Shown here: positions 6,457 to 20,000 of the stretch, piece after piece
How positions within the stretch are numbered: position 1 is the stretch's first letter
Layout of the letters: every line of letters begins with the position of its first letter
Assembly: GCA_000004985.1 (NCBI GenBank)
Contig: GG738854.1
Origin: Naegleria gruberi
Taxonomy: Eukaryota
Strand: one strand, 5' to 3'
Length of the DNA stretch: 64,000 nucleotides
Notes under the pieces: model-generated
Told to the model about the DNA's origin: nothing
Seen by the model: the letters and a program-made list of their open reading frames with translations, nothing else
Database searches by the model: none
Program-made: the position numbers and the translations under genes

Positions 6457-9400
6457 ATGTTTCGTTTCTTCTTATTGATAACACTCACACTTGCAGGTTT
6501 CGTGCACCAGCAGATGCATGTCAGTGGAGCCGAATCCAATGTTAAATACATAGTCAAGACCTATTCAACTCTACCAGCCAACACCAATCCAAATGCCATT
6601 CAATTCTATAACCACAAGATGTATGTAACAGGTTCCACTAATAACATCTATGCAGTTTCGAATAATGGAAGTTATACCATCGTAAACCCAATATCCACTT
6701 TGGATGCTCCAACAGGAATACATATTGTGGATGATTGGCTCTATGTTTCTAATAGTGGATCTCAGAAAGTTTCCAAGATGTATTTAAATGATTCTCCAAT
6801 TCAAGTATTTGATGTTTTAACATTTTATCCTAATACGAATCTTTTTGTTTTATCAGAAAGTGAATTGTATGCAGTCGATAAGAATAATAACTTGATTCGA
6901 CACTGGAAGGATAGTTCCTTTGCATTGGTTAGTGTTGGCAGTCTTAATGGACCGAATGGAATTTTTATTCGAAACAATACTATTTACTTTACCGAAAATG
7001 GAGCTCGTACATTGAAAGCAATCGATCAAAATAATCAAATTTCAATTCTTGCTTCAGATATTAATGCGTATTCAGTATATGTCACTGAAGATAATGTCAT
7101 TTTCTTTACAGATTATGTTGGTAGCCTAATTTGGAGAATTAAAGACGGTCAATCTTCGGTAATTGCTGGATATTCAGGAAGTTCTGGTAATGATAATAAG
7201 GAGAATGTCAATGCCACTTCTAGTAGTGTAACTCTTCCTACTGGAATAACATTTGACAACTTGACAGGTATAATTTACTTTGCAGAAATTTCCAATCAAC
7301 GAATTCGTGGATTGATTCCATATTGTGAAACAGCTGGACATTACTTGAATGCACAAAAGTCACGTTGTGTGTCAAGTGTCTGTTCAGGAGTTGACAGCAC
7401 CAACTCTTCTGTTTGTTCATCACGTGGTATTTGTAATCAAACCAATCAATGCTCATGCCAATCAAAGTATTTTGGTGATAATTGTGAATTGACAAGTTGT
7501 AATGGAATTCAAAGTAATTCAAATTTGGTTTGTTCTGGAAATGGAACTTGTCAAGATTACAATTTTTGTAATTGTAAGAATGGTTTGCTTGGAAAGAATT
7601 GTCAAATTGCAACTTGCTTTGGAATTTTATCCAATCAAACAAGTGCTTGCAGTAGTGGAAGAGGTATTTGTCAAGGAATGGATTTTTGTAATTGTTCGAA
7701 AGGTTTCGTCGGCCAAGATTGTGCTGAACATACATGTGGAGGCATTTCTTATAATAACACAGCAACTTGTTCTGGAAATGGAACGTGTGTTGGTGTAGAT
7801 AGCTGTTCTTGCAAGGAGGGTTTTTATGGAGATAACTGTCAAATGCCAAAATGTTTTTCAATCATGTCAAATGACACGAGTGTTTGCTCTGGTAATGGAG
7901 AATGTATTGGAAAAGATAAGTGCAATTGTAAGAGTGATTATTCTGGATATCGTTGTGAAATAACTTCATGTTTCGGTATCCCATCAAACTATTCGAATGT
8001 TTGTTCTGGAAATGGAAATTGCACTTTCAAAGATTTCTGTAATTGCACATTTGGATATTTAGGTAAACAATGTGAAGTTGCTCCTTGTTATGGAATTCCA
8101 GCAAATTATTCGAATGTCTGTTCTGGAAATGGAAATTGTAATGGAAAAGATAATTGTAATTGTCAACCAGGATTTTCAGGAAATCAATGTGAAATTCCAA
8201 CTTGTTTTGGAATTTTGGGAAACAGTTCAATGGCGTGCTCTGGCAATGGAGAATGTCAAAATTTAGATCAATGCAATTGTAATTCAAATTATACTGGATC
8301 AAAATGTGATGTTCCTATATGTTTCGGTATTGCAAAAAGTTCTAGTTTAGTTTGCTCAGCTATTGGAAATTGTACGAAACCTGATTTTTGTGAATGTCCA
8401 TCAAATTATGAAGGATACGAATGTCAATTTCGCATCACTCCAAGAAAATTACAAACTAATGGCATTCCAACTGCAATTGTCCAAGGAATTTCCACAACTT
8501 TTGATTTGAAAGTTATTGGAATGGAATTGAGAACATTTAGTGATCTAGTCAACTCGAGAAAGGATTGTGGAGTGACATGTTCACTTTCTTTATCATATAG
8601 TTGGTATTTGAAGGATAGAGACAATGGTTCACCGTTAATTATCCAACATTCGAATACCGCATTTGGAAATACGAAATATCTTTCGTCTTCAACTTTCCAG
8701 TTGACTTTCTCACCTGTTATTTCAATTGGTTTTACTAGAATTTTAAGTAGAAATGTAACTTTGACATTTGAAATTGTATCTGGTGGTGAAAATGTTTCAA
8801 TTTCTCAAGATATCTTGATTATTTCACCTCTGTTGAGAACTAAAGGTTTAGGTAAGATTCAACCAAGTTCTGGAATCGCACTTGGTTCCTTATTTTCAAT
8901 AGAGGAAGATAAGAATCTTTGGACAGTCTCGGAAGAAAGTAAGAAATATCTTGAACCTTTTCAATTTGCCTTTGGTTTCTTTTACAATCAAGAATTAGTA
9001 AGAATCTCTGATTTTTCCATAAATGGGATGGATTTATTGTTCCTTCCATATTTGAACGCAAATAATAGTAATGGACAAAGTGAAAATTTGGATATTTATG
9101 TTATCTGTAAGGATGCTTTAAAGAATGAATATTCTTCTCTTATTGGTACTGTTTCAATTAGTCCAAATTTGGTAAACACAGTTGAAGAATTGAAAAATCA
9201 AATTGATGATATTGCACGCATTATTCCTTATGACTCTTCATGGAAGTTTAGAGATCTGAAAGAATACAGCTCTGTTATTATCGAGTCTGTCAGCAAGTTG
9301 AGTATTGACATTAATAATCCATCAAATACTTTAACAACTCTTCGACAATTGACAAGCCAAAGTGTTGCTTCTTCTTACCAAGTTGGTTCTATCATTAATG

Positions 9401-11697
9401 ATAAGATTGATTCTTACTTATCTTCTTTAAATCAAGTTTATAAGAAGGAAAAGGAAACTAATGGATATGTTTCTAATAGATTGACAAATTCTGATTTGAA
9501 GAATACTTTATCAAGTGCTAGTAACTTGCTTTTCTTTGGATTTTCCAATATCTCAAGCCTTTGTACTCAATTATCATCCGTTTTATTGTATCAACAGTCA
9601 ACCAAGATAGTTTCCAACTCAATTGACTATTCGAAATATTCAACTGAATTAATTAACATTACAGTTTCGTCATTTGTCAAGAGCAATTCCAGTATCAAGG
9701 CACTACAATTCTCTGACATTTTTCTAGATTCAGATTACATTCTTAACAAGTATAACGGTTACAATAAGGAAATTGGTCTTTCCTTAATTTCTTACAATTC
9801 GAAACTATATAATTCAAGCCAAACTCAAATAACCAACTCCAAAGATTTCACTCTTTATATGGGAGGAGAGGCTCTTCCTCTATCAGAATTAGTTCAACCT
9901 ATCTACATTTCATTTTCTGTTCAAAATTTGACTTCTTTGAATCAATCCCTTGTCAAGTGTCAATTTTGGAATGAAACAACAGAAAAATGGGATAATCAAG
10001 GATGTTCCTTGCATGTATTCAATCAAGCTACTGGCGAAGTGACCTGTAAATGCACTCACACTACTCTATTCGCTGCCTTTGTTGAACAATCATTCAATGA
10101 AACTCTGGTTGACCAAGTAGTATTGAAAGAGTTATCGAATTTGTACATTGCTCAAATTTCCTTTGGAGTTCTCTTCCTAATGCTTTCTAGTACATTACTA
10201 GTTGGTTTGATTATCATGAGAAAATCTCAACCATTAGCAAGTCGTTTCGTCACACCATTTATAGGAATGATTGCCTTAATAGTGGAATGTATCTTGTTGC
10301 TTATAACACAGAGAAGCATTTTATTGTCAGAACAGAATGGATGGTCTGAATCCACAGCTATACAAGTGGAAAGTTCAGATTTGGCAGCCAATATTGTTTC
10401 GAATATTATCGCCATTATTGTAAACACTTTGACTTTGACAGCAATGTTTGCTTATTTGTATCAAATTTCCAGATATCACATTCTGAAATATTTCTATCAC
10501 AAGCTTTCCATCAAGTTTTCCCTCAATTCTGGTCAAAAAGAAAGTGAACGAAACTTGTCCCTAATTAGACAGCTCTTGTCAACCAAAGCCATGATCACAA
10601 TCATCACTACTTTTGTAATTTTGAACCTATTATACTGGACTCTCTGGGTTATCCTTGTGAGAACTTCAGCAATTACAGGAGTTGCCTATTCTTACATTGT
10701 TTCAATTTCATTCACTGTGATTCTTCTTTGTTTAGGATTCATGATTTGTGGTTTGATTGGATTAGATGTTTTCATGACTCTTATGAATGAGAGAAAGGAA
10801 AAGTCAATTGTCAATAATGGTAATCAAGAAAACGCAAGTCAGTCCAGTAATTCATTGCAAAAGTTTGATAAGGAGGCCACCAAGAAAATAGCCAAGATTA
10901 GTTTATGGAAAGCGTATAATTGGTTTATTAAGATTGACAATCCTCTCTATTTTAGAGGTGAAATGAGTCTTTTCGTGTTGTGTTTCGTATTTTTGAACAT
11001 TTCACAAATTATTGGAATTTCAGGATTGAGTTATAAGAAAGGAGAAAAAATGTCAAGAGTTAATGATTCCATTTCTTTGGTATTCGAAGTCTTGTACTTG
11101 TTCACTTACTTGTTGGTCTTTGGAGGTTATGCATTGTTAGTCAGATTAGTTCAGTTTATTCAACAAAAGAAGAAACAATCATTATCCAAAAATAGAGATT
11201 CTTCTGAGATGGATGAATTAAGCCAAATCTTGAATAATGTGGAAGGATTGAGATTATTGGAGCAATTTAGTGAAAAAGAATATTCCTTAGAGAATTTGCA
11301 TTTATTCTTGGAAATGAAACACAACCAACAATTAATTAAGACATCTGACAATATGGATGAACTTTATGTGTTCATGGATAACGTTTGGTCAACTTACATT
11401 CAAACAGATTCCATTAAGGAAGTTAATATTCCATCCGATTGTAAACGAAATTTCTCTAAAGTGAAAAATTCCCTATTCGAAATTGTCAAGCAGCAAGAAC
11501 CTGAGTTGAAAAATCAAAAACCAATTCCAGAAGAATTGGCAACCGAATTACAACAAGTATTTTCTGTATTGTCTGATCAAATTACTTTCAATTTGAGTGA
11601 TACCTTTTCTAGATTCTCCTTGACTGATGAATATTCCAATTATTTGAATGTATTGGAAACTCAACAAGAGTTATTGAACAAATCCAAGCTAGTTTAG
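6457..11697 (+). CDS. Giant receptor: signal peptide, NHL-like beta-propeller, 12 tenascin/comC-type EGF repeats, GAIN/GPS motif, 7TM and a C-terminal RGS domain (adhesion-GPCR-like 7TM-RGS protein)
   Basis: A single 1746-aa ORF. The signal peptide is MFRFFLLITLTLAGFV, followed by propeller-like blades (NQRIRGL, LPTGITFD). Twelve tandem repeats of the form C.G.G.C....C.C..G..G..C. follow (7390-8440). The GPS consensus CQFWNETTEKWDNQGCSLHVFNQATGEVTCKCTHTTLFAAF lies at about 9960-10080, immediately before seven hydrophobic helices (10130-11160). The RGS consensus (EKEYSLENLHLFLEMKHN ... EVNIPSDCKRNF ... RFSLTDEYSNYL) lies at 11200-11650. Confidence 0.85.
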   Translation: MFRFFLLITLTLAGFVHQQMHVSGAESNVKYIVKTYSTLPANTNPNAIQFYNHKMYVTGSTNNIYAVSNNGSYTIVNPISTLDAPTGIHIVDDWLYVSNSGSQKVSKMYLNDSPIQVFDVLTFYPNTNLFVLSESELYAVDKNNNLIRHWKDSSFALVSVGSLNGPNGIFIRNNTIYFTENGARTLKAIDQNNQISILASDINAYSVYVTEDNVIFFTDYVGSLIWRIKDGQSSVIAGYSGSSGNDNKENVNATSSSVTLPTGITFDNLTGIIYFAEISNQRIRGLIPYCETAGHYLNAQKSRCVSSVCSGVDSTNSSVCSSRGICNQTNQCSCQSKYFGDNCELTSCNGIQSNSNLVCSGNGTCQDYNFCNCKNGLLGKNCQIATCFGILSNQTSACSSGRGICQGMDFCNCSKGFVGQDCAEHTCGGISYNNTATCSGNGTCVGVDSCSCKEGFYGDNCQMPKCFSIMSNDTSVCSGNGECIGKDKCNCKSDYSGYRCEITSCFGIPSNYSNVCSGNGNCTFKDFCNCTFGYLGKQCEVAPCYGIPANYSNVCSGNGNCNGKDNCNCQPGFSGNQCEIPTCFGILGNSSMACSGNGECQNLDQCNCNSNYTGSKCDVPICFGIAKSSSLVCSAIGNCTKPDFCECPSNYEGYECQFRITPRKLQTNGIPTAIVQGISTTFDLKVIGMELRTFSDLVNSRKDCGVTCSLSLSYSWYLKDRDNGSPLIIQHSNTAFGNTKYLSSSTFQLTFSPVISIGFTRILSRNVTLTFEIVSGGENVSISQDILIISPLLRTKGLGKIQPSSGIALGSLFSIEEDKNLWTVSEESKKYLEPFQFAFGFFYNQELVRISDFSINGMDLLFLPYLNANNSNGQSENLDIYVICKDALKNEYSSLIGTVSISPNLVNTVEELKNQIDDIARIIPYDSSWKFRDLKEYSSVIIESVSKLSIDINNPSNTLTTLRQLTSQSVASSYQVGSIINDKIDSYLSSLNQVYKKEKETNGYVSNRLTNSDLKNTLSSASNLLFFGFSNISSLCTQLSSVLLYQQSTKIVSNSIDYSKYSTELINITVSSFVKSNSSIKALQFSDIFLDSDYILNKYNGYNKEIGLSLISYNSKLYNSSQTQITNSKDFTLYMGGEALPLSELVQPIYISFSVQNLTSLNQSLVKCQFWNETTEKWDNQGCSLHVFNQATGEVTCKCTHTTLFAAFVEQSFNETLVDQVVLKELSNLYIAQISFGVLFLMLSSTLLVGLIIMRKSQPLASRFVTPFIGMIALIVECILLLITQRSILLSEQNGWSESTAIQVESSDLAANIVSNIIAIIVNTLTLTAMFAYLYQISRYHILKYFYHKLSIKFSLNSGQKESERNLSLIRQLLSTKAMITIITTFVILNLLYWTLWVILVRTSAITGVAYSYIVSISFTVILLCLGFMICGLIGLDVFMTLMNERKEKSIVNNGNQENASQSSNSLQKFDKEATKKIAKISLWKAYNWFIKIDNPLYFRGEMSLFVLCFVFLNISQIIGISGLSYKKGEKMSRVNDSISLVFEVLYLFTYLLVFGGYALLVRLVQFIQQKKKQSLSKNRDSSEMDELSQILNNVEGLRLLEQFSEKEYSLENLHLFLEMKHNQQLIKTSDNMDELYVFMDNVWSTYIQTDSIKEVNIPSDCKRNFSKVKNSLFEIVKQQEPELKNQKPIPEELATELQQVFSVLSDQITFNLSDTFSRFSLTDEYSNYLNVLETQQELLNKSKLV

Positions 11698-14109: not shown

Positions 14110-17100
14110 ATGCAAGAAAGGAGTGTTGTAGGTAACCCTTACCAACAACCTCAATCACCTAATAATAATCCTCCAAAAAGACTTGAACGACAACGATCGA
14201 CTACATCGAACATGGCACATAGAATACCAAGTCGTTCCTCACTTGGTGGTAATCGTTCTGGACAAGAAGCAAATAATAGTAATATTAAATTAAAATCAGT
14301 AGAGAATGACCTCATCTCTCGGAGGGGTAGTAAACAATTAAATAGACCTAAAAGCACCATATCTAAGGTTTCTGTAGGAAGTGAAAGAATGAGAGAAGGT
14401 GCTATACAACGAATCGAATCTACAGTATTTCTCTTTATTAATGCTTTAAAACTAGAAAAACCAATTCCTAGGTTTATTTACTTTTTACTTAACTGGATAG
14501 TTATTTGGCAAACTCTTAGTCTGGGAGTATCAATAGATTTTAATTGGGGCGAGTATGGTCGTTATTTATACCATGCTGTGGCTATTCCCCGAACTTTTGG
14601 ATTCCAATTTCTGCCCTATGATGCTTTCATTGGATTGGCTATTGCTGTGTACATATTGGAAATAATAGCTCTATTCACTATTTATCTGACATATAGGTCG
14701 TTCATTAATGGAAGTAAATATTGGTCAAAAATCAAAACAACAGCTAGGATAACATTTGCCCTAATGATTATTATAAGTTTACCTTCAACGTATGGAATGA
14801 GTTCCTCATTTTGGGATTGCGATTATTCTCAAACTGAAACAATTTCTGGAAAGGTTACATTTACCTTGAAAAGATTTCCAACCATTGAGTGTTGGGGAGC
14901 TACCAATGGAGCAATGGCTGCCTTATCAATAATAGCCATGGTTGTACAGATATTTTTCACAACGTTTGCTGTATTTATATTCTGTGATACTAGTATATCA
15001 AGTAAGAGCATGTTTGCAATGGAAAATAGCCTCTTTCTCGCTGTGATTGTCTCCACAAATCAAATCTTCCTTATTGTTTCCCAAGTGACACCATCTATGG
15101 TTTATTATTTAAGACCAGTATACTTTATAGTTGTTTCATTAATTTCAGTAGGAGTTCTTATTTGGCAGACACCTTTTTTGTTCAGATCGATGAATTCAGT
15201 TTATGCAGGGATAACAACAGGTAGAATAGGTGTTGCGGCTGGGTCGCTTGTAGCCACATTAATCAATAAGGAAGATGAGTGGCAAGTTGGGCTAGGAATA
15301 ACATTTGGCCCAGTTGCAGGATTTATAATTTTCTTTTTTATTGGTTTTATTGGTGTGGAAATATATACTAGGGTTTTAAAATCAAGAGGAAGAAAGTTAT
15401 TGGAAGGACTGATGGAGTCAAGAAACATTGCCATCCTCATAGACAAAGACTATTACTACATTACACAATTCATTAGACATTCCACTAAGGCAAATGAGAA
15501 GGAAAAGACTTTAGGAAAAAGCTTCTCCAGAATGGTAGTCAATTACAAAGATGCCATTCCATCCGAGACCCTGCTTGCCATAGCTTTATTTATGAAATAT
15601 GTATTAGAAGACAATTCGACAACCTTTATTCTCATGCTATTGAAAAAGGCTGAAAAACAACGAAATGACTTTTTGACACGATTCAAGCTTTTCCTTAGAT
15701 TCAGAGAAATTGAGAGAGCTACTTCTACAGGAAGAAACAATTTTGAATTGGACCACATTTTGGAGGGAATTCAAAAGAAAAGCTGACTTGTTGAAACATT
15801 TGCAAGTTAGATTTTGGAAGAATGTTGCCTCAGGTCAAGATCTCTACTCTGTTACGAAACAAATGGAAGAAACTTCTACAGAATGCTATCAAACGTTTGG
15901 TAATTTAATGGTCAATCATCACAATAACAAGACTGTCCTCCGAGCATATGCATCATATTTGGAAGAGTTTGCATTTGAACCCCTATTTGCCGAGGAACTA
16001 TACAATGAGGCAAACATTTTAGAAGAAGAAGAGGTTCTCAAATCAAAACCTAAATCTAAAAAGCCTATTACAGCTCCAAAAACAAATCTTGCAAACTTGG
16101 ACGGAAAACTTGTTACCAATCTGGATGATGATGATGCTATCCTAGAATCAGCTAGTCAGCAGGGAGAAATGGATCCAGGTGAGCGTTTAAAGGAACAATA
16201 CAGAACTGCTATCAATAAGAGAGAAGAAAATAATTTCATTCTCATTTTCCTTGTCTCACTATGCGTTGTTTCAATTATTTACATGATCATTACTTTGGCT
16301 ATGGATTTAGCATTCACAAATAAGAACACAAGTATTGTAGAAGTTATTAAGGAAGCTTGTATATTAGGACCTATTCCATACGCTCTTCTTTCTGACATGA
16401 GACGAATTAATTTACTGGATGATGAGAGCTTGATTCAAAATTCAACAAGATTTTTCAATGATTACCAAGTAAGGCTCTCTTCTTTCAAATCAGTTTTGGA
16501 AACTTTTATTCACTCCTCAGAGGGATCATTATTTTCAACAAAAATGAAAGAAGACTTCACAAATAATGACAAATCATACAATGTAAGTGTGTTAATGTTT
16601 TTATTATTTACACCAACTTTATAGGTGGCTATAACCAAACTTGAGAATGTTACAGGAATTGAATTCTTCACCAAAAATGCCTCTATTTCTGCTATTGCAA
16701 ACGCTTTTTCATCTCTTACCAATGAAATTTCCTTATTCAACCTTACAACATATTCAGAAACCTATAGGAATTTCTACTTTTCCATGATGTTCGTTAACAG
16801 ATTGTCATTTACAAATGCTTTTGAACTCTTTTACTCTTCAATGATTTCTGGTGAACTTGTGGATTTACAATACGATACAAATGTGTTTGTGATTGTCTTT
16901 GCTACTCTTACTGCTGCCTATTTTATTTATATCCTTGTTTATCTTGGTATGCTGATCTCACATGTTGGTCATAGAAAGCACATCCTTAAACTGTTTTCAA
17001 ATATTCCAAAACAAGAAGCCTCAAAAATTAGCCATGAATTGGAACTTAAAACTGACAACACCATCATTCCACAAAAGAATTACTTTATTACACCAGTCAG

Positions 17101-20000
17101 AGGAATTATTATTTTGATTTCAATAGCTTTATCCATTACTACCATTGCCTCCGCTCTTATCTTATATGAGGGTCTAACTCAAATGAATAGTTCAATTCTT
17201 GTAATGAGAAAGTTGGAATACTCTTCAAAAGCTCTCATGACTTCTCAAAGAATATTATTCAAGATACAAGAATTATTATTAGAGGATGCATCAGCACTAG
17301 GTGTAAACAAGACTCAATTCTTCCATGAAATTGATGCTCATATTATGGATTTTGAACAGGGTTGGACTGCTTTAAGGTATGGTACTGCAGAAGACTCTTT
17401 CAGTTCCCTCTCTGGAGTGACGGGTATAATTGATGAGTTATTACAATCATCTAATTGCTCTTTGTCGAGTAATTCTAGTGTTGCAAGCGAATGTACTGGG
17501 CTTGACTCAATTGTAGAGGACTTTGACGGCTCAGTTTTGAAGTTAAACCAAAATGCATTCAGGGAAACATTTTCTAGAGATGTATTACTTGATGAGCTAC
17601 AGGCAGTTTATGATCAGAGTGTAGAGTTGTTCAATAGTTTTTCCATTATTATGAATTCTTATGTTTCAAACTTTTCCAATCAGCAAAAAGTTATTGGAGC
17701 TGTATCTACCTCATTGGCTTCCTTTTTCCTTTTGATTACAGTATTTTTGTTATATAGAGCAATTAGCAGTTTTGGAAGTGAAAATCACCAACTGAGAATC
17801 ATGCTAAACCATTTGCCAGTGGACATTCTCGATAGTGATGGTGATATTCGTTCATATATCATGTATTATACCCTTGGAAACTCAAAGAAAAAGTCTGACA
17901 AGAATGGACAACAAGTGAGTAATGAAAAAGCTATTCTTGAGGCAGCTGTTGCTGGAACAGCAGTTTGTTCTTCATATGGATCAATTGATATTTTCAACGA
18001 ATCTGCTCAAAAGATGTTTGGGTACAGATTGGATGAAGTGATTGGTGTGTCTTTGGCTCAAATGTTTACTAATGAAAGTCAGCCATCACTTCATAGTGTG
18101 CTTTCCAATATGGCAATTTCATCTAAAACTTATGGTGAAAACTTGACATTACAAGGTCAAAGAAAGAATAAGACAACCTTCCCAGTTCAACTCAGAATTT
18201 CAGTATCAGTAATTGAGGGAAGAAATATTATATCTTGTTTTATGACAGATTTAACAACAGATAGAGAGCATGATCTCATGTTGGCAGAAGAAAAGAAGAA
18301 GAGTGAATCATTACTTCTTAACATTCTTCCAGAGTCTATTGCACAACGACTTTCAAATGGAGAAACATTTATTGCTGACAGTCACGAGGATGTCACTTGT
18401 TTGTTCAGTGACTTGGTAGGATTTGTTGAGGTTTCTGTACACATGTCCGCAACTGAGCTTGTGCAAACTTTGAATATTATTATTAATGGTTTTGATTCTC
18501 TTGTGCCAATTTATCAAATAGAAAAAATCAAGACTATTAGTGAGAAATACTTTTGTGCTGGAGGTCTTAAGGTCAGGTCTGATGAAGGAGACCATCCTGA
18601 AGAGAGAACTCTTAAATTTGCTATGGATATGTTTGGAGTTGTCTACAATTACAACACAGATTTTCACAGAAACTTTACTGTTCGTATTGGTATGCATTGT
18701 GGACCATTGGTAGCCGGTGTTTGTGGTACTTTGAAGTTTGCTTATGACTTGTGGGGAGATGCTGTAAATGTAAGTTATTGTTTTCACTTGTATTTTGCTA
18801 ACTACTAAATAGACTGCTTCAAGAATGGAGTCTACAGGTAAATCTGGAAGAATTCAAATCACAGAAAAGTTACACAGCAAATTATGTGGAAAGTATCAAT
18901 TTGAAAAGTCTAGTGTTGTGGCAAAAGGAAAAGGAGAAATGACCACATATCTATTGAGCACTGAATACTATCAAAACACTTCTCCAGATGCTATGCCACT
19001 AGACAGTACCCTGAAAATTAGAGCAAGAGCTATGGGACATCCTGTTGGTGATGAATTCTCTGAACATCATTCCGAGAGTGGTCAACAAATGGAAGGAACA
19101 GAAGATTTTAAAAATATTAAACCCTCCACACCACCTCCGACCAGTCAAACCTTGAATCCAGTATTAGCCACCATAACTAAAGTTTCCTCATTATCTTCTC
19201 TAACTTCTGCTGCAGAAAAGGAGGAAAAGGAATTAGTTGCTAATGCCAATAACAACAATAATAACAGTACTCCCTCCCTAAACGTTGATCCAGTAGCTGG
19301 TTCAAATAATTCAACAACAACAACTGGACTTGATTCAATTCTTAGTAGATCTAGAAGTTTGTCTGTTAAGGTACAGCAACCAGTATTGCTTGATTTAAAG
19401 AATACAGAGAATAATAACTCTGGCAATCTTAGAAGATTCTCTCTTCCTCGATCAGGATCACCAATTTCTCCAGTCGGTTCTGAAATTAGAAATCCATTTA
19501 GTCCTGCCAAACAAACCAGCAACAGTAACGTGACAAGCAATGTGACCATACCAAACAATACTACAAACGAAGCTACGGAAACAACTGAAGTATCTACAAC
19601 TCCACCGCCTTCATCTTCTGTTTTAACAAATCAACATATTGAACTTCCACTATTACCAACAACTCAATCCCTTAGTAGTAATTCTCAAAGTAGAAATTCA
19701 AGTAGAAGAGCTAGCGTGAGCTCAGAGTGCTCATCTTCATCTTCAGGCACTCTTGAGATTATGAATAAGCCAGTGTTGAATGGGAATATTAGAAGATCAA
19801 TAGAGAGGCAAAAGATTTATGACCAAGAAACACACAGATATAGCGAACAAGATTCAGATGATGAGAATAAGAGTGTATTAGAAGTTCACAAGTTAAGGCG
19901 AGCATCTCAACCTTATGTAAATATGGACCATCATCACAGACATGAAAGTAATAGTTCATCCTCTGAAAACCATGCACTAAAGGAAGAAGAAAAAGAGTAA
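14110..20000 (+). CDS. Class III nucleotidyl (adenylyl-type) cyclase with an N-terminal multi-TM block, a two-TM-flanked extracytoplasmic loop and a PAS domain; four ORF segments joined by two ~42-nt introns and one unexplained frame break
   Basis: Segments: 14110..~15700 (Ser-rich N-terminus plus 7-8 TM helices), ~15677..16582, 16625..18769 and 18813..20000. The introns are about 16583..16624 (GTAAGT..TATAG) and 18770..18812 (GTAAGT..AAATAG). A PAS-like region lies at 17890-18250. The cyclase core is LLNILPESIAQRL..FSDLVGF..KTISEKYF..GMHCGPLVAGVCG..YDLWGDAVN|TASRMESTG and spans the second intron. Lys and Asp at the substrate-specifying positions point to an ATP-type enzyme. The C-terminus is a long Ser/Thr/Asn-rich tail. 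The frame break at 15677-15786 has no GT..AG that could account for it. Confidence 0.8.

What the first reader, a model, noticed from the sequence alone, without database searches (positions are those of the whole stretch)
6457..11697. Self-contained receptor-GAP: NHL-like propeller, 12 tenascin-type EGF repeats, GAIN/GPS, 7TM and a C-terminal RGS domain in one intronless 1746-aa ORF
Seen in the sequence: a signal peptide, a propeller-like N-terminal region and twelve tandem Cys repeats (C.G.G.C....C.C..G..C). A textbook GPS box (C..W.....W...GC..........C.C.H.T.F) is immediately followed by seven TM helices, and the cytoplasmic tail matches the RGS consensus. 7TM-RGS proteins are known in plants (AtRGS1) and some protists, and adhesion-type GPS/GAIN 7TMs are known in metazoa and amoebozoa. 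An adhesion-GPCR-like ectodomain combined with an intramolecular RGS (a receptor that carries its own G-alpha GAP) is an unusual, possibly undescribed, architecture. It could couple an autoproteolytic or adhesive ectodomain directly to G-protein deactivation.
Basis: partly seen in the sequence, partly recalled or inferred. Interest (0 to 1): 0.75.

Follow-up and report, generated by a model that had tools for sequence, protein, structure and literature searches.

The report
Naegleria adhesion-type 7TM-RGS receptor gene
This is a real, intact Naegleria gruberi gene for a cell-surface receptor that joins an adhesion-receptor-like outer part to its own G-protein "off switch" (RGS domain), but the design was already described in 2022 in the sister species N. 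fowleri, so it is a new member of a known family.

Summary
The 1746-codon ORF at 6457-11697 (+) is real. It is a Naegleria gruberi gene, already deposited as an unnamed "predicted protein" that starts 19 codons too late.

Confirmed domains:
- Pfam supports teneurin-type EGF repeats, a GPS motif and an RGS domain, all above curated cut-offs.
- An AlphaFold model matches solved GAIN domains (CD97, BAI3, latrophilin) and RGS domains.
- The seven helices have a generic GPCR fold.

Corrections:
- There are nine EGF units, not twelve.
- The NHL propeller is supported only through paralogues.
- The 7TM domain is not a class B2/adhesion (7tm_2) domain. It is a separate, narrow family (148 clusters among 1.84 billion representatives) that almost always carries RGS.
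- In that family 80 clusters have a GPS box, 77 of them H-T|T.

The architecture is not undescribed. Bosch et al. 2022 (PMC9283941) reported 28 "7TM RGS" proteins in N. fowleri, several with EGF repeats and GPS motifs, and showed that their RGS domains act as GAPs on Naegleria G-alpha. One relative found here is their Nf 7TM RGS1.

Most likely function: a receptor-regulated GAP. Cleavage, the ligand and the coupling between the GAIN switch and GAP output remain untested.

Novelty: new member of a known kind. Interest: moderate-low.

The parts
6457..11697 (+). Complete single-exon coding sequence, 1746 aa plus stop. The gene belongs to Naegleria gruberi and is deposited as a 'predicted protein' of 1727 aa that starts at Met20.
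   Evidence: The ORF is listed. It is 100% identical to P0001 from aa 20 onward. The chance of a stop-free run of this length is about 1e-57.
6457..6531 (+). Probable signal peptide (MFRFFLLITLTLAGFVHQQ...). It is missing from the deposited gene model.
   Evidence: The sequence was read directly. Paralogue P0002 has its own hydrophobic leader just before the shared AES..KY motif. The cleavage position is approximate and was not predicted with a dedicated tool.
6532..7326 (+). Degenerate NHL-like beta-propeller, about six blades (aa ~26-290).
   Evidence: A regular-expression scan found five blade motifs of the form (I/L)(Y/F)xx(D/N/E)xxxxx(I/V)xx; a sixth (IYFTENGARTLKAI, aa ~176-189) was picked out by eye in the translation. 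BLASTP matches NHL regions of P0002 (E 1.5e-17), P0091, P0030 and P0019. P0002 scores 52 bits on Pfam NHL. In this protein the only Pfam match is sub-threshold Arylesterase. No structure was predicted for this part.
7381..8424 (+). Nine tandem teneurin/tenascin-type EGF units of 39 aa (aa 309-656).
   Evidence: Pfam gives EGF_Teneurin 100 bits (9 stretches), EGF_TEN 89.6 bits and EGF_2 79 bits. The regex count is nine. Units 5-7 still repeat at the DNA level with a 117-nt period (7877-8214).
8425..9171 (+). Family-conserved linker, REJ-like by transitive evidence only (aa 657-905).
   Evidence: BLASTP matches the same region of more than 20 family members. It shares the motif P..G..L...F......W.......P..Y/F with relatives. 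In P0075 the equivalent region lies inside a Pfam REJ hit (aa 1170-1645, 75 bits) that abuts the GAIN domain. The query itself has no REJ hit.
9172..9594 (+). GAIN subdomain A, a helical bundle (aa ~906-1046).
   Evidence: The AF2 model has helices at model residues 13-150, which is ORF aa 909-1046. Foldseek matches the GAIN domains of BAI3 (4dlo, E 3.6e-7), latrophilin-1 (4dlq, E 3e-6) and CD97 (8ikj, E 4e-8).
9595..10089 (+). GAIN subdomain B, a beta-sandwich that includes the GPS motif (aa 1047-1211). The putative autoproteolysis site lies between T1202 (nt 10060-10062) and T1203 (nt 10063-10065). The tethered-peptide-like strand is T1203-LFAAFVEQ.
   Evidence: Pfam GPS scores 30.5-32.8 bits. 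In the AF2 model the last two strands are aa 1194-1199 and aa 1205-1211, with H-T-T in the turn between them. H, both T and F+3 are invariant in the 15-member alignment. In the wider family 77 of 80 GPS boxes are HTT and 3 are HAT.
10114..11187 (+). Seven-helix transmembrane domain with a GPCR fold, belonging to a family of its own (aa 1220-1577).
11206..11685 (+). Cytoplasmic RGS domain (aa 1584-1743) with a roughly 35-aa insert between helices.
   Evidence: Pfam RGS scores 30.3 bits. phmmer matches RGS5 and RGS18. Foldseek gives target-normalised TM-scores of 0.74-0.81 to RGS1, RGS16, RGS8 and RGS4. The motifs S1610-L-E-N1613, E-V-N1657-I-P and D1715-T-F-S-R1719 are present.

Best explanation
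The gene encodes a member of the Naegleria/heterolobosean '7TM RGS' receptor family, in its adhesion-type form.

Shown here:
- One polypeptide carries, in order: a leader peptide, an NHL-like propeller, nine EGF units, a REJ-like linker, a GAIN domain with an H-T|T GPS site, a GPCR-fold 7TM domain and a cytoplasmic RGS domain.
- The RGS domain keeps the residues used by canonical RGS proteins to bind G-alpha.

Shown by others for close relatives: isolated RGS domains of N. fowleri family members bind the transition state of Naegleria G-alpha subunits and accelerate GTP hydrolysis. Some of those G-alpha subunits exchange nucleotide spontaneously.

Inferred:
- The protein sits in the plasma membrane with the ectodomain outside. 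At rest it holds G-alpha in the GDP state through its RGS domain, as plant AtRGS1 does.
- Binding of a surface, matrix or prey ligand to the propeller/EGF region, or mechanical pull on it, acts through the GAIN domain. This may follow autoproteolysis at T1202|T1203 and exposure of the strand TLFAAFV.
- That changes the 7TM conformation, and with it the position, accessibility or surface residence of the RGS domain, so that G-alpha-GTP accumulates locally.
For: - Domain calls pass curated thresholds.
- The GAIN and RGS folds were recovered from an AF2 model with pLDDT 75.6.
- Loop charges fit an N-out/C-in topology. The ectodomain holds 31 N-glycosylation sequons and 64 cysteines.
- The 7TM type is found in only 148 clusters of 1.84e9. 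Nearly every full-length one carries RGS, and about 80 carry a GPS box, 77 of them HTT. The three modules therefore evolve as one unit and the cleavage triad is under selection.
- H-X-S/T and the Gly-Cys motif, both described as requirements for GPS cleavage (PMC13062082), are invariant.
- The post-site pattern T-x-F-(A/S)-(A/T)-F-(I/V/L) matches the hydrophobic register of the adhesion-GPCR Stachel core (PMC13470171).
- The RGS contact motifs are kept.
- Relative P0004 is Nf 7TM RGS1 of Bosch 2022, identified by primer-encoded peptides.
- The RGS domains of Nf 7TM RGS2, 3 and 4 are GAPs for Nf G-alpha 2, 3, 5 and 7. They are sensitive to the switch-1 G-to-S mutation and selective for the AlF4- form. 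Nf G-alpha 5 and 7 are self-activating.
Against: - Nothing was tested on this protein. Cleavage, surface location, ligand and GAP activity are all inferred.
- The Stachel-like pattern is also required for packing of the last GAIN strand, so its conservation does not prove an agonist role.
- Read against the ORF translation, with no structural alignment, putative TM6 and ECL2 contain no Trp. The Trp residues that hold the Stachel in adhesion GPCRs (W6.55, W45.51) therefore have no obvious counterpart.
- RGS identity to the tested N. fowleri-type domains is only about 31-35%.
- The RGS domain of the one relative that can be matched to a tested protein, Nf 7TM RGS1, gave uninterpretable assays.
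- No evidence bears on how 7TM conformation would change GAP output.
Confidence: 0.6

Rival explanations
1. Bifunctional receptor. The 7TM domain is a true GPCR that is switched on by its tethered peptide and acts as an exchange factor (GEF) for a G-alpha. The attached RGS domain then shuts the same G-alpha off quickly. This would sharpen the timing and spatial focus of the signal, rather than the RGS being the main output.
For: - The 7TM domain has a canonical GPCR fold.
- Cytoplasm-facing residues are invariant across the family: R1255, S1262, R1263 and P1267 in ICL1, R1339 at the inner end of TM3, D1437, and the L-x-F-R motif before TM6. This suggests a conserved intracellular partner surface.
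- Several Naegleria G-alpha subunits are not self-activating and would need a GEF, while only one conventional GPCR candidate was found in N. fowleri.
- The GAIN and Stachel-like module is the activation device of adhesion GPCRs.
Against: - No GPCR sequence family or G-protein-coupling motif is detectable.
- In plants and Trichomonas, the precedent for 7TM-RGS is GAP control of self-activating G-alpha without GEF activity.
- There is no experimental hint of GEF activity for any 7TM-RGS protein in the papers read.
Confidence: 0.25
2. Mainly an adhesion or substrate-recognition protein. The RGS domain would serve only as a docking site that recruits active G-alpha (effector-like, as in RGS-RhoGEF) or is vestigial. 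The GPS site would be uncleaved and structural.
For: - The ectodomain is large and modular, and varies widely among paralogues (NHL, B-lectin, REJ, 0-34 EGF units), as expected for diversifying adhesion or recognition proteins.
- Some adhesion GPCRs with an intact motif are not cleaved.
Against: - The GAP-relevant residues (E-N, N1657, D..R) are conserved across the family.
- Related RGS domains have measurable GAP activity through a canonical interface.
- HTT is kept in 77 of 80 clusters.
Confidence: 0.1
3. Artefact: a chimeric ORF created by an assembly join or gene fusion, or a decaying pseudogene.
For: None was found. The only irregularity is that the public model starts at Met20.
Against: - The ORF is uninterrupted for 5.2 kb in AT-rich DNA.
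- It is collinear with paralogue P0002 over aa 300-1746 (43% identity).
- It is collinear over the GAIN-7TM-RGS part with 14 aligned relatives from N. gruberi, N. fowleri, N. lovaniensis, Willaertia magna and unnamed JGI and ENA environmental contigs.
- All functional motifs are intact.
Confidence: 0.02

Closest known systems
Naegleria fowleri '7TM RGS' proteins (Nf 7TM RGS1-4 of 28; Bosch, Jeck & Siderovski, J Biol Chem 2022, PMC9283941)
   Same: The genus and the overall design are the same: EGF-rich ectodomain, GPS motif, seven TM helices and a C-terminal RGS. The 7TM family is the same by profile search. P0004 is Nf 7TM RGS1. It aligns to 62% of this protein at 32% identity with E 0.
   Different: The species and paralogue differ, and no one-to-one N. 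fowleri orthologue was found. The nearest relatives are N. gruberi P0002 (43%) and a partial N. lovaniensis protein (39%). This protein has an NHL-like propeller and only nine EGF units, whereas the described N. fowleri members have lectin domains and longer EGF arrays. Its RGS domain has not been assayed.
Arabidopsis AtRGS1 and other 7TM-RGS proteins (plants, Trichomonas, chytrids, filastereans)
   Same: A seven-TM domain is fused to a C-terminal RGS. The proposed logic, a receptor-controlled GAP acting on G-alpha that can load GTP by itself, is the same.
   Different: As I recall it, AtRGS1 has no large ectodomain, no GAIN/GPS and no EGF. No named plant or other non-heterolobosean protein appeared among the roughly 30 representatives whose sources were looked up. 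Homology of the 7TM parts is therefore not shown.
Metazoan adhesion GPCRs (class B2, ADGR; e.g. CD97/ADGRE5, latrophilin, BAI3)
   Same: The GAIN fold is shared (Foldseek E 4e-8 to 3e-6). So are a GPS with H-X-T and Gly-Cys, a Stachel-like hydrophobic strand, EGF-containing adhesive N-termini and a GAIN domain directly ahead of TM1.
Polycystin-1 / PKDREJ / sea-urchin REJ proteins
   Same: A REJ-type region is followed by GAIN/GPS in the ectodomain. REJ is detected directly in family members P0075 and P0020.
   Different: There are seven TM helices rather than eleven. No PLAT domain and no TRP-like channel domain were detected. An RGS tail is present. REJ is not detected directly in this protein.
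Teneurins
   Same: Pfam's teneurin-type EGF models are the best EGF matches. The paralogues' propellers match the Teneurin NHL model.
   Different: Only these two ectodomain modules are shared, and their order is reversed (propeller before EGF). There is no YD shell, and the membrane topology and everything downstream differ.

Membership tests
Naegleria/heterolobosean 7TM-RGS family (Bosch 2022) | Seven predicted TM helices followed by a C-terminal RGS domain in one polypeptide. | tested here: met
   There are seven hydropathy peaks and seven modelled helices. Pfam RGS scores 30.3 bits against a cut-off of 23.9.
Naegleria/heterolobosean 7TM-RGS family (Bosch 2022) | Sequence homology of the 7TM-RGS part to the described N. 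fowleri members. | tested here: met
   P0004 (Nf 7TM RGS1, identified by primer-encoded peptides) matches the 7TM profile at E 1.4e-136. Its RGS domain matches this protein's RGS at 31% identity, E 1.7e-24.
Naegleria/heterolobosean 7TM-RGS family (Bosch 2022) | GAP activity of the RGS domain on Naegleria G-alpha. | not testable with these tools
   Only conservation of the contact motifs SxEN, EVN and DxxxR could be checked. Activity was shown for Nf 7TM RGS2, 3 and 4, not for this protein.
GAIN-domain proteins | GAIN fold: helical subdomain A plus beta-sandwich subdomain B, with the GPS in the last strands. | tested here: met
   The AF2 secondary structure fits this layout. Foldseek matches 8ikj, 4dlo, 4dlq, 6v55 and 5kvm.
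GAIN-domain proteins | GPS motif with four Cys, two Trp, Gly-Cys and the H-X-S/T triad. | tested here: met
   The motif is C1168..W1171..W1178..G1182-C1183..C1197-x-C1199-x-H1201-T-T1203. These positions are invariant in 15 relatives.
GAIN-domain proteins | Actual autoproteolysis at the GPS. | not testable with these tools
   The motif alone is insufficient (PMC13062082).
Adhesion GPCRs (class B2, Pfam 7tm_2) | 7TM domain that belongs to the secretin/adhesion 7tm_2 family. | tested here: not met
   [not shown]
Adhesion GPCRs (class B2, Pfam 7tm_2) | Stachel core (F/Y, A/G, V/I, L, M/L/A after H-X-S/T) together with its 7TM pocket residues W6.55 and W45.51. | tested here: inconclusive
   The peptide pattern is similar: T-L-F-A-A-F-V, with F+3 invariant. 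No Trp is visible in putative TM6 or ECL2 by inspection of the ORF translation. No structural alignment of the pocket was possible.
AtRGS1-type 7TM-RGS | 7TM domain homologous to that of plant RGS1. | tested here: inconclusive
   The exhaustive profile search gave 148 hits. All named ones among 30 looked up are Naegleria or Willaertia, and the rest are unnamed environmental sequences. No direct comparison with AtRGS1 was run.
Polycystin-1 family | REJ + GAIN/GPS + 11 TM with a PLAT domain and a TRP-like channel region. | tested here: not met
   There are seven TM helices, and no PLAT or PKD_channel hit. REJ is seen only in relatives.
NHL-repeat beta-propellers | Match to NHL repeat models in six blades. 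| tested here: inconclusive
   This protein has no NHL hit. Support is transitive, through P0002 (BLASTP E 1.5e-17; NHL 52 bits) and blade motifs (five found by regex, a sixth by eye). No structure was predicted.

The most novel reading that the evidence does not exclude
The GAIN/tethered-peptide switch, known only as an activator of G-protein exchange in adhesion GPCRs, is wired here to a GAP output. Force or ligand on the ectodomain would de-repress self-activating G-alpha by altering an intramolecular RGS. On this reading, the pairing of a GAIN domain with a GPCR-fold 7TM domain that is not class B would mean the GAIN-7TM coupling is older, or more freely re-invented, than the adhesion-GPCR family itself. 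The near-invariance of H-T|T (77 of 80 clusters) would reflect obligatory autoproteolysis in a free-living excavate amoeba.
Probability: 0.3. Interest if true: 0.7.

Novelty: new member of a known kind. Interest (0 to 1): 0.35.

Why it matters
The ordinary reading is that this is one more paralogue of a published Naegleria receptor family, and that the public gene model needs a small 5' correction.

The family itself is still mechanistically open. Nobody has shown whether the GPS is cleaved, what the ectodomains bind, or how a 7TM domain controls an attached GAP.

This work adds three points:
- The GAIN fold is really present.
- The cleavage triad and a Stachel-like strand are kept almost without exception across about 80 clusters.
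- The 7TM domain has a GPCR fold but is not a class B2 domain.

Together these make a concrete, testable case for a tethered-ligand-controlled GAP. N. gruberi is non-pathogenic and easy to culture, so it would be a safer system than N. fowleri for such tests. The results would bear on drug-target ideas for the pathogen and on the origin of adhesion-GPCR signalling.

Tried and rejected
- A word-indexed homologue search with the C-terminal 867 aa returned only one protein. I judged this a limit of candidate selection, because the exhaustive profile search later found 148.
- The 7TM profile against PDB sequences gave only ryanodine-receptor S5/S6 matches at E about 0.4-0.7. I rejected them as spurious. 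The E-values are not significant, and by my reading the matched helices would run in opposite directions through the membrane. A polycystin/TRP-like channel reading was dropped for the same reason and for lack of PLAT or channel hits.
- Pfam at E<=10 on 14 7TM segments gave no GPCR family, only scattered noise.
- Foldseek on the 7TM-only model gave no match better than E 0.018, all generic class A GPCRs. I used it only as evidence against a specific class B2 affinity.
- The afdb50 fold library was unavailable, so the comparison with AtRGS1 and other predicted 7TM-RGS structures could not be made.
- Axonemal proteins among the Foldseek hits to the large model (8glv_AE, 8j07_k3, 9fqr_Hn) were not followed up.
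- A look-up of the contig that encodes distant member P0075 gave a JGI sample number but no organism.
- An assembly-join or fusion artefact was considered and rejected on the collinearity evidence.
Full report

The window holds one uninterrupted ORF at 6457..11697 on the + strand, 1746 aa. At the window's base composition the chance of 1746 stop-free codons is about 1e-57.

The protein is 100% identical, from its Met20 onward, to a deposited Naegleria gruberi 'predicted protein' of 1727 aa (P0001). The window is therefore N. gruberi nuclear DNA. The surrounding ORFs are ordinary eukaryotic genes: RPN1, Frag1/DRAM, a PAS-cyclase, a GH5-like protein, ankyrin, a kinase and further NHL proteins.

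The deposited model omits the first 19 codons, which encode a hydrophobic leader, MFRFFLLITLTLAGFVHQQ. The closest paralogue has its own leader just before the same conserved motif. I take the ATG at 6457 as the true start.

**2. Domain by domain**

- **EGF, GPS and RGS.** Pfam finds teneurin-type EGF repeats (EGF_Teneurin 100 bits, EGF_TEN 90, EGF_2 79), a GPS motif (30.5 bits, cut-off 22.5) at aa 1167-1206 and an RGS domain (30.3 bits, cut-off 23.9) at aa 1588-1711.
- **EGF count.** The cysteine repeats number nine, not twelve: nine 39-aa six-Cys units at aa 309-656. Three of them are still recognisable as a 117-nt tandem array in the DNA.
- **Propeller.** The N-terminal 'propeller' reaches no Pfam threshold here. 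It does carry NHL-like blade motifs (five by regex, a sixth by eye) and aligns to the NHL regions of paralogues (P0002, E 1.5e-17). P0002 scores 52 bits on Pfam NHL.
- **REJ-like linker.** The stretch between the EGF array and the GAIN domain (aa 657-905) is conserved across the family. In distant members it falls inside a Pfam REJ hit. I call it REJ-like on transitive evidence only.
- **Transmembrane segments.** Seven hydrophobic segments follow the GPS directly (aa 1229-1569). Loop charges fit an N-out/C-in topology. The ectodomain carries 31 glycosylation sequons and 64 cysteines.

**3. Structure**

An AlphaFold2 model of aa 897-1746, built on an alignment with 14 relatives (A1), has mean pLDDT 75.6. 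It shows, in order:
- a helical bundle;
- a beta-sandwich whose last two strands flank the H1201-T1202-T1203 turn;
- seven long helices;
- a helical RGS bundle.

Foldseek against the PDB returns:
- inactive full-length CD97/ADGRE5 first (E 4e-8);
- then the GAIN domains of BAI3, latrophilin-1, GPR126 and GPR56;
- RGS1, RGS16, RGS8 and RGS4 with target-normalised TM-scores of 0.74-0.81.

The GAIN and RGS assignments are thus supported by fold as well as by sequence.

**4. What the 7TM domain is**

- No Pfam 7TM family matches this protein or any of 14 relatives, even at E<=10.
- A family profile finds no solved GPCR by sequence.

The 7TM domain therefore has a GPCR fold but is not a class B2 (7tm_2) domain. 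The protein has an adhesion-GPCR-like ectodomain without being a member of that family.

**5. The family**

Searching the 7TM profile exhaustively against 1.84 billion cluster representatives gave only 148 hits at E<=1e-3, 89 of them at E<=1e-30.

With local HMMs and a motif scan:
- nearly every full-length hit has the RGS domain;
- 80 hits have a GPS box, of which 77 read H-T-T and 3 read H-A-T;
- the residues after the site follow T-x-F-(S/A/T)-(A/T/S)-F-(I/L/V);
- the weaker hits (400-860 aa) have the 7TM and RGS domains but no GAIN.

Every named member among 30 looked up is from Naegleria gruberi, N. fowleri, N. lovaniensis or Willaertia magna. The rest are unnamed environmental sequences.

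N-terminal modules vary freely among members: NHL, B-lectin, REJ, and 0-34 EGF units. The conserved, co-inherited core is GAIN-7TM-RGS. The ectodomain tip is the variable, presumably ligand-recognising part.

**6. Prior knowledge**

Bosch, Jeck and Siderovski (J Biol Chem 2022, PMC9283941) reported the following:
- N. fowleri has 28 '7TM RGS' proteins.
- A number of them have GPS motifs, and several have EGF repeats and lectin domains, 'reminiscent of the adhesion GPCRs'.
- Isolated RGS domains of Nf 7TM RGS2, 3 and 4 accelerate GTP hydrolysis on Nf G-alpha 2, 3, 5 and 7 through a canonical interface and bind the AlF4- form.
- Nf G-alpha 5 and 7 are self-activating.

Their cloning primers for Nf 7TM RGS1 encode NKDMSI... 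and ...NVVYLC-stop. Both peptides occur at the right positions in P0004, a relative found here.

7TM-RGS fusions as a class are known from plants and many protists (PMC3971589). GAIN domains are known from Dictyostelium and Tetrahymena (PMC3321182).

The present gene is an uncharacterised N. gruberi paralogue of it.

**7. How it most likely works**

Shown:
- the domain order and topology;
- an intact H-X-T triad, Gly-Cys and the four-Cys/two-Trp GPS frame, the features listed as needed for cleavage;
- a post-site strand with the hydrophobic register of the adhesion-GPCR Stachel core;
- RGS motifs S1610-x-E-N1613, N1657 and D1715...R1719. From my own knowledge of RGS4-G-alpha-i1, these correspond to S85/E87/N88, N128 and D163/R167, the G-alpha switch contacts.

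Inferred:
- The RGS domain keeps nearby G-alpha in the GDP form.
- Engagement of, or pull on, the ectodomain acts through the GAIN domain and its tethered strand on the 7TM bundle.
- This changes GAP access or receptor residence at the surface, as proposed for AtRGS1.

I put 0.6 on this receptor-regulated-GAP reading. The main rival, at 0.25, is that the 7TM domain is also a genuine exchange factor and the RGS domain sharpens its signal. That rival would fit the block of invariant cytoplasm-facing residues (R1255, S1262, R1263, P1267, R1339, D1437, L-x-F-R before TM6).

Caveats:
- The motif alone does not guarantee cleavage.
- The Stachel-like pattern is also imposed by GAIN packing.
- The Trp residues that hold the Stachel in adhesion GPCRs have no obvious counterpart here.
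- Nothing has been measured on this protein.

**8. Verdict**

I file it as a new member of a known kind, with moderate-low interest. The family does remain a good, tractable place to test whether a GAIN/tethered-peptide switch can drive a GAP rather than a GEF.

Noticed in passing
window 6457-6513: The deposited N. gruberi gene model (P0001, 1727 aa) starts at the second ATG (Met20). It omits a 19-residue hydrophobic leader that a secreted ectodomain needs. The first in-frame ATG after the upstream stop is at 6457.
   Followed up: partly
window 52646-55942 (-) and 57623-61538 (+): Four further ORFs carry NHL/teneurin-NHL repeats, and there is one EGF-like stretch near 53390-53560. They are probably two intron-containing NHL(-EGF) genes. 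This shows that the ectodomain modules of the target are common building blocks in this genome region.
   Followed up: partly
window 16625-18808 (+): This ORF has PAS domains followed by an adenylate/guanylate cyclase catalytic domain. It is one of the very large Naegleria cyclase family that Bosch 2022 listed among candidate heterotrimeric G protein signalling components.
   Followed up: no
window 7877-8214: EGF units 5-7 of the target are still a recognisable 117-nt tandem repeat at the DNA level (2.9 copies, 72% matches). This suggests recent unit duplication in the EGF array.
   Followed up: no
P0088 (Willaertia magna, 2762 aa; a hit): This heterolobosean protein has REJ, a GPS reading H-L|T, many TM segments and no RGS, so it looks polycystin-1-like. 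Both GAIN-containing receptor types therefore seem to coexist in this lineage.
   Followed up: no
Foldseek hits to model m4e2a3e1cb19e: Axonemal doublet-microtubule proteins from Chlamydomonas, human, bovine and Trypanosoma (8glv_AE, 8j07_k3, 9fqr_Hn, 9e5c_5n) scored E 6e-5 to 1.5e-2 against the GAIN-7TM-RGS model. Which part of the model they match was not examined.
   Followed up: no
P0266 (N. gruberi, same 665-kb scaffold as the target, outside this window): An 'alpha tubulin suppressor' (RCC1-repeat) protein falls in a cluster that weakly matches the 7TM profile (P0232, E 4.9e-6) and shows no RGS. Related eukprot proteins (P0037, P0047) combine RCC1 repeats, EGF units, TM segments and RGS.
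   Followed up: no
[not shown]
   Followed up: no
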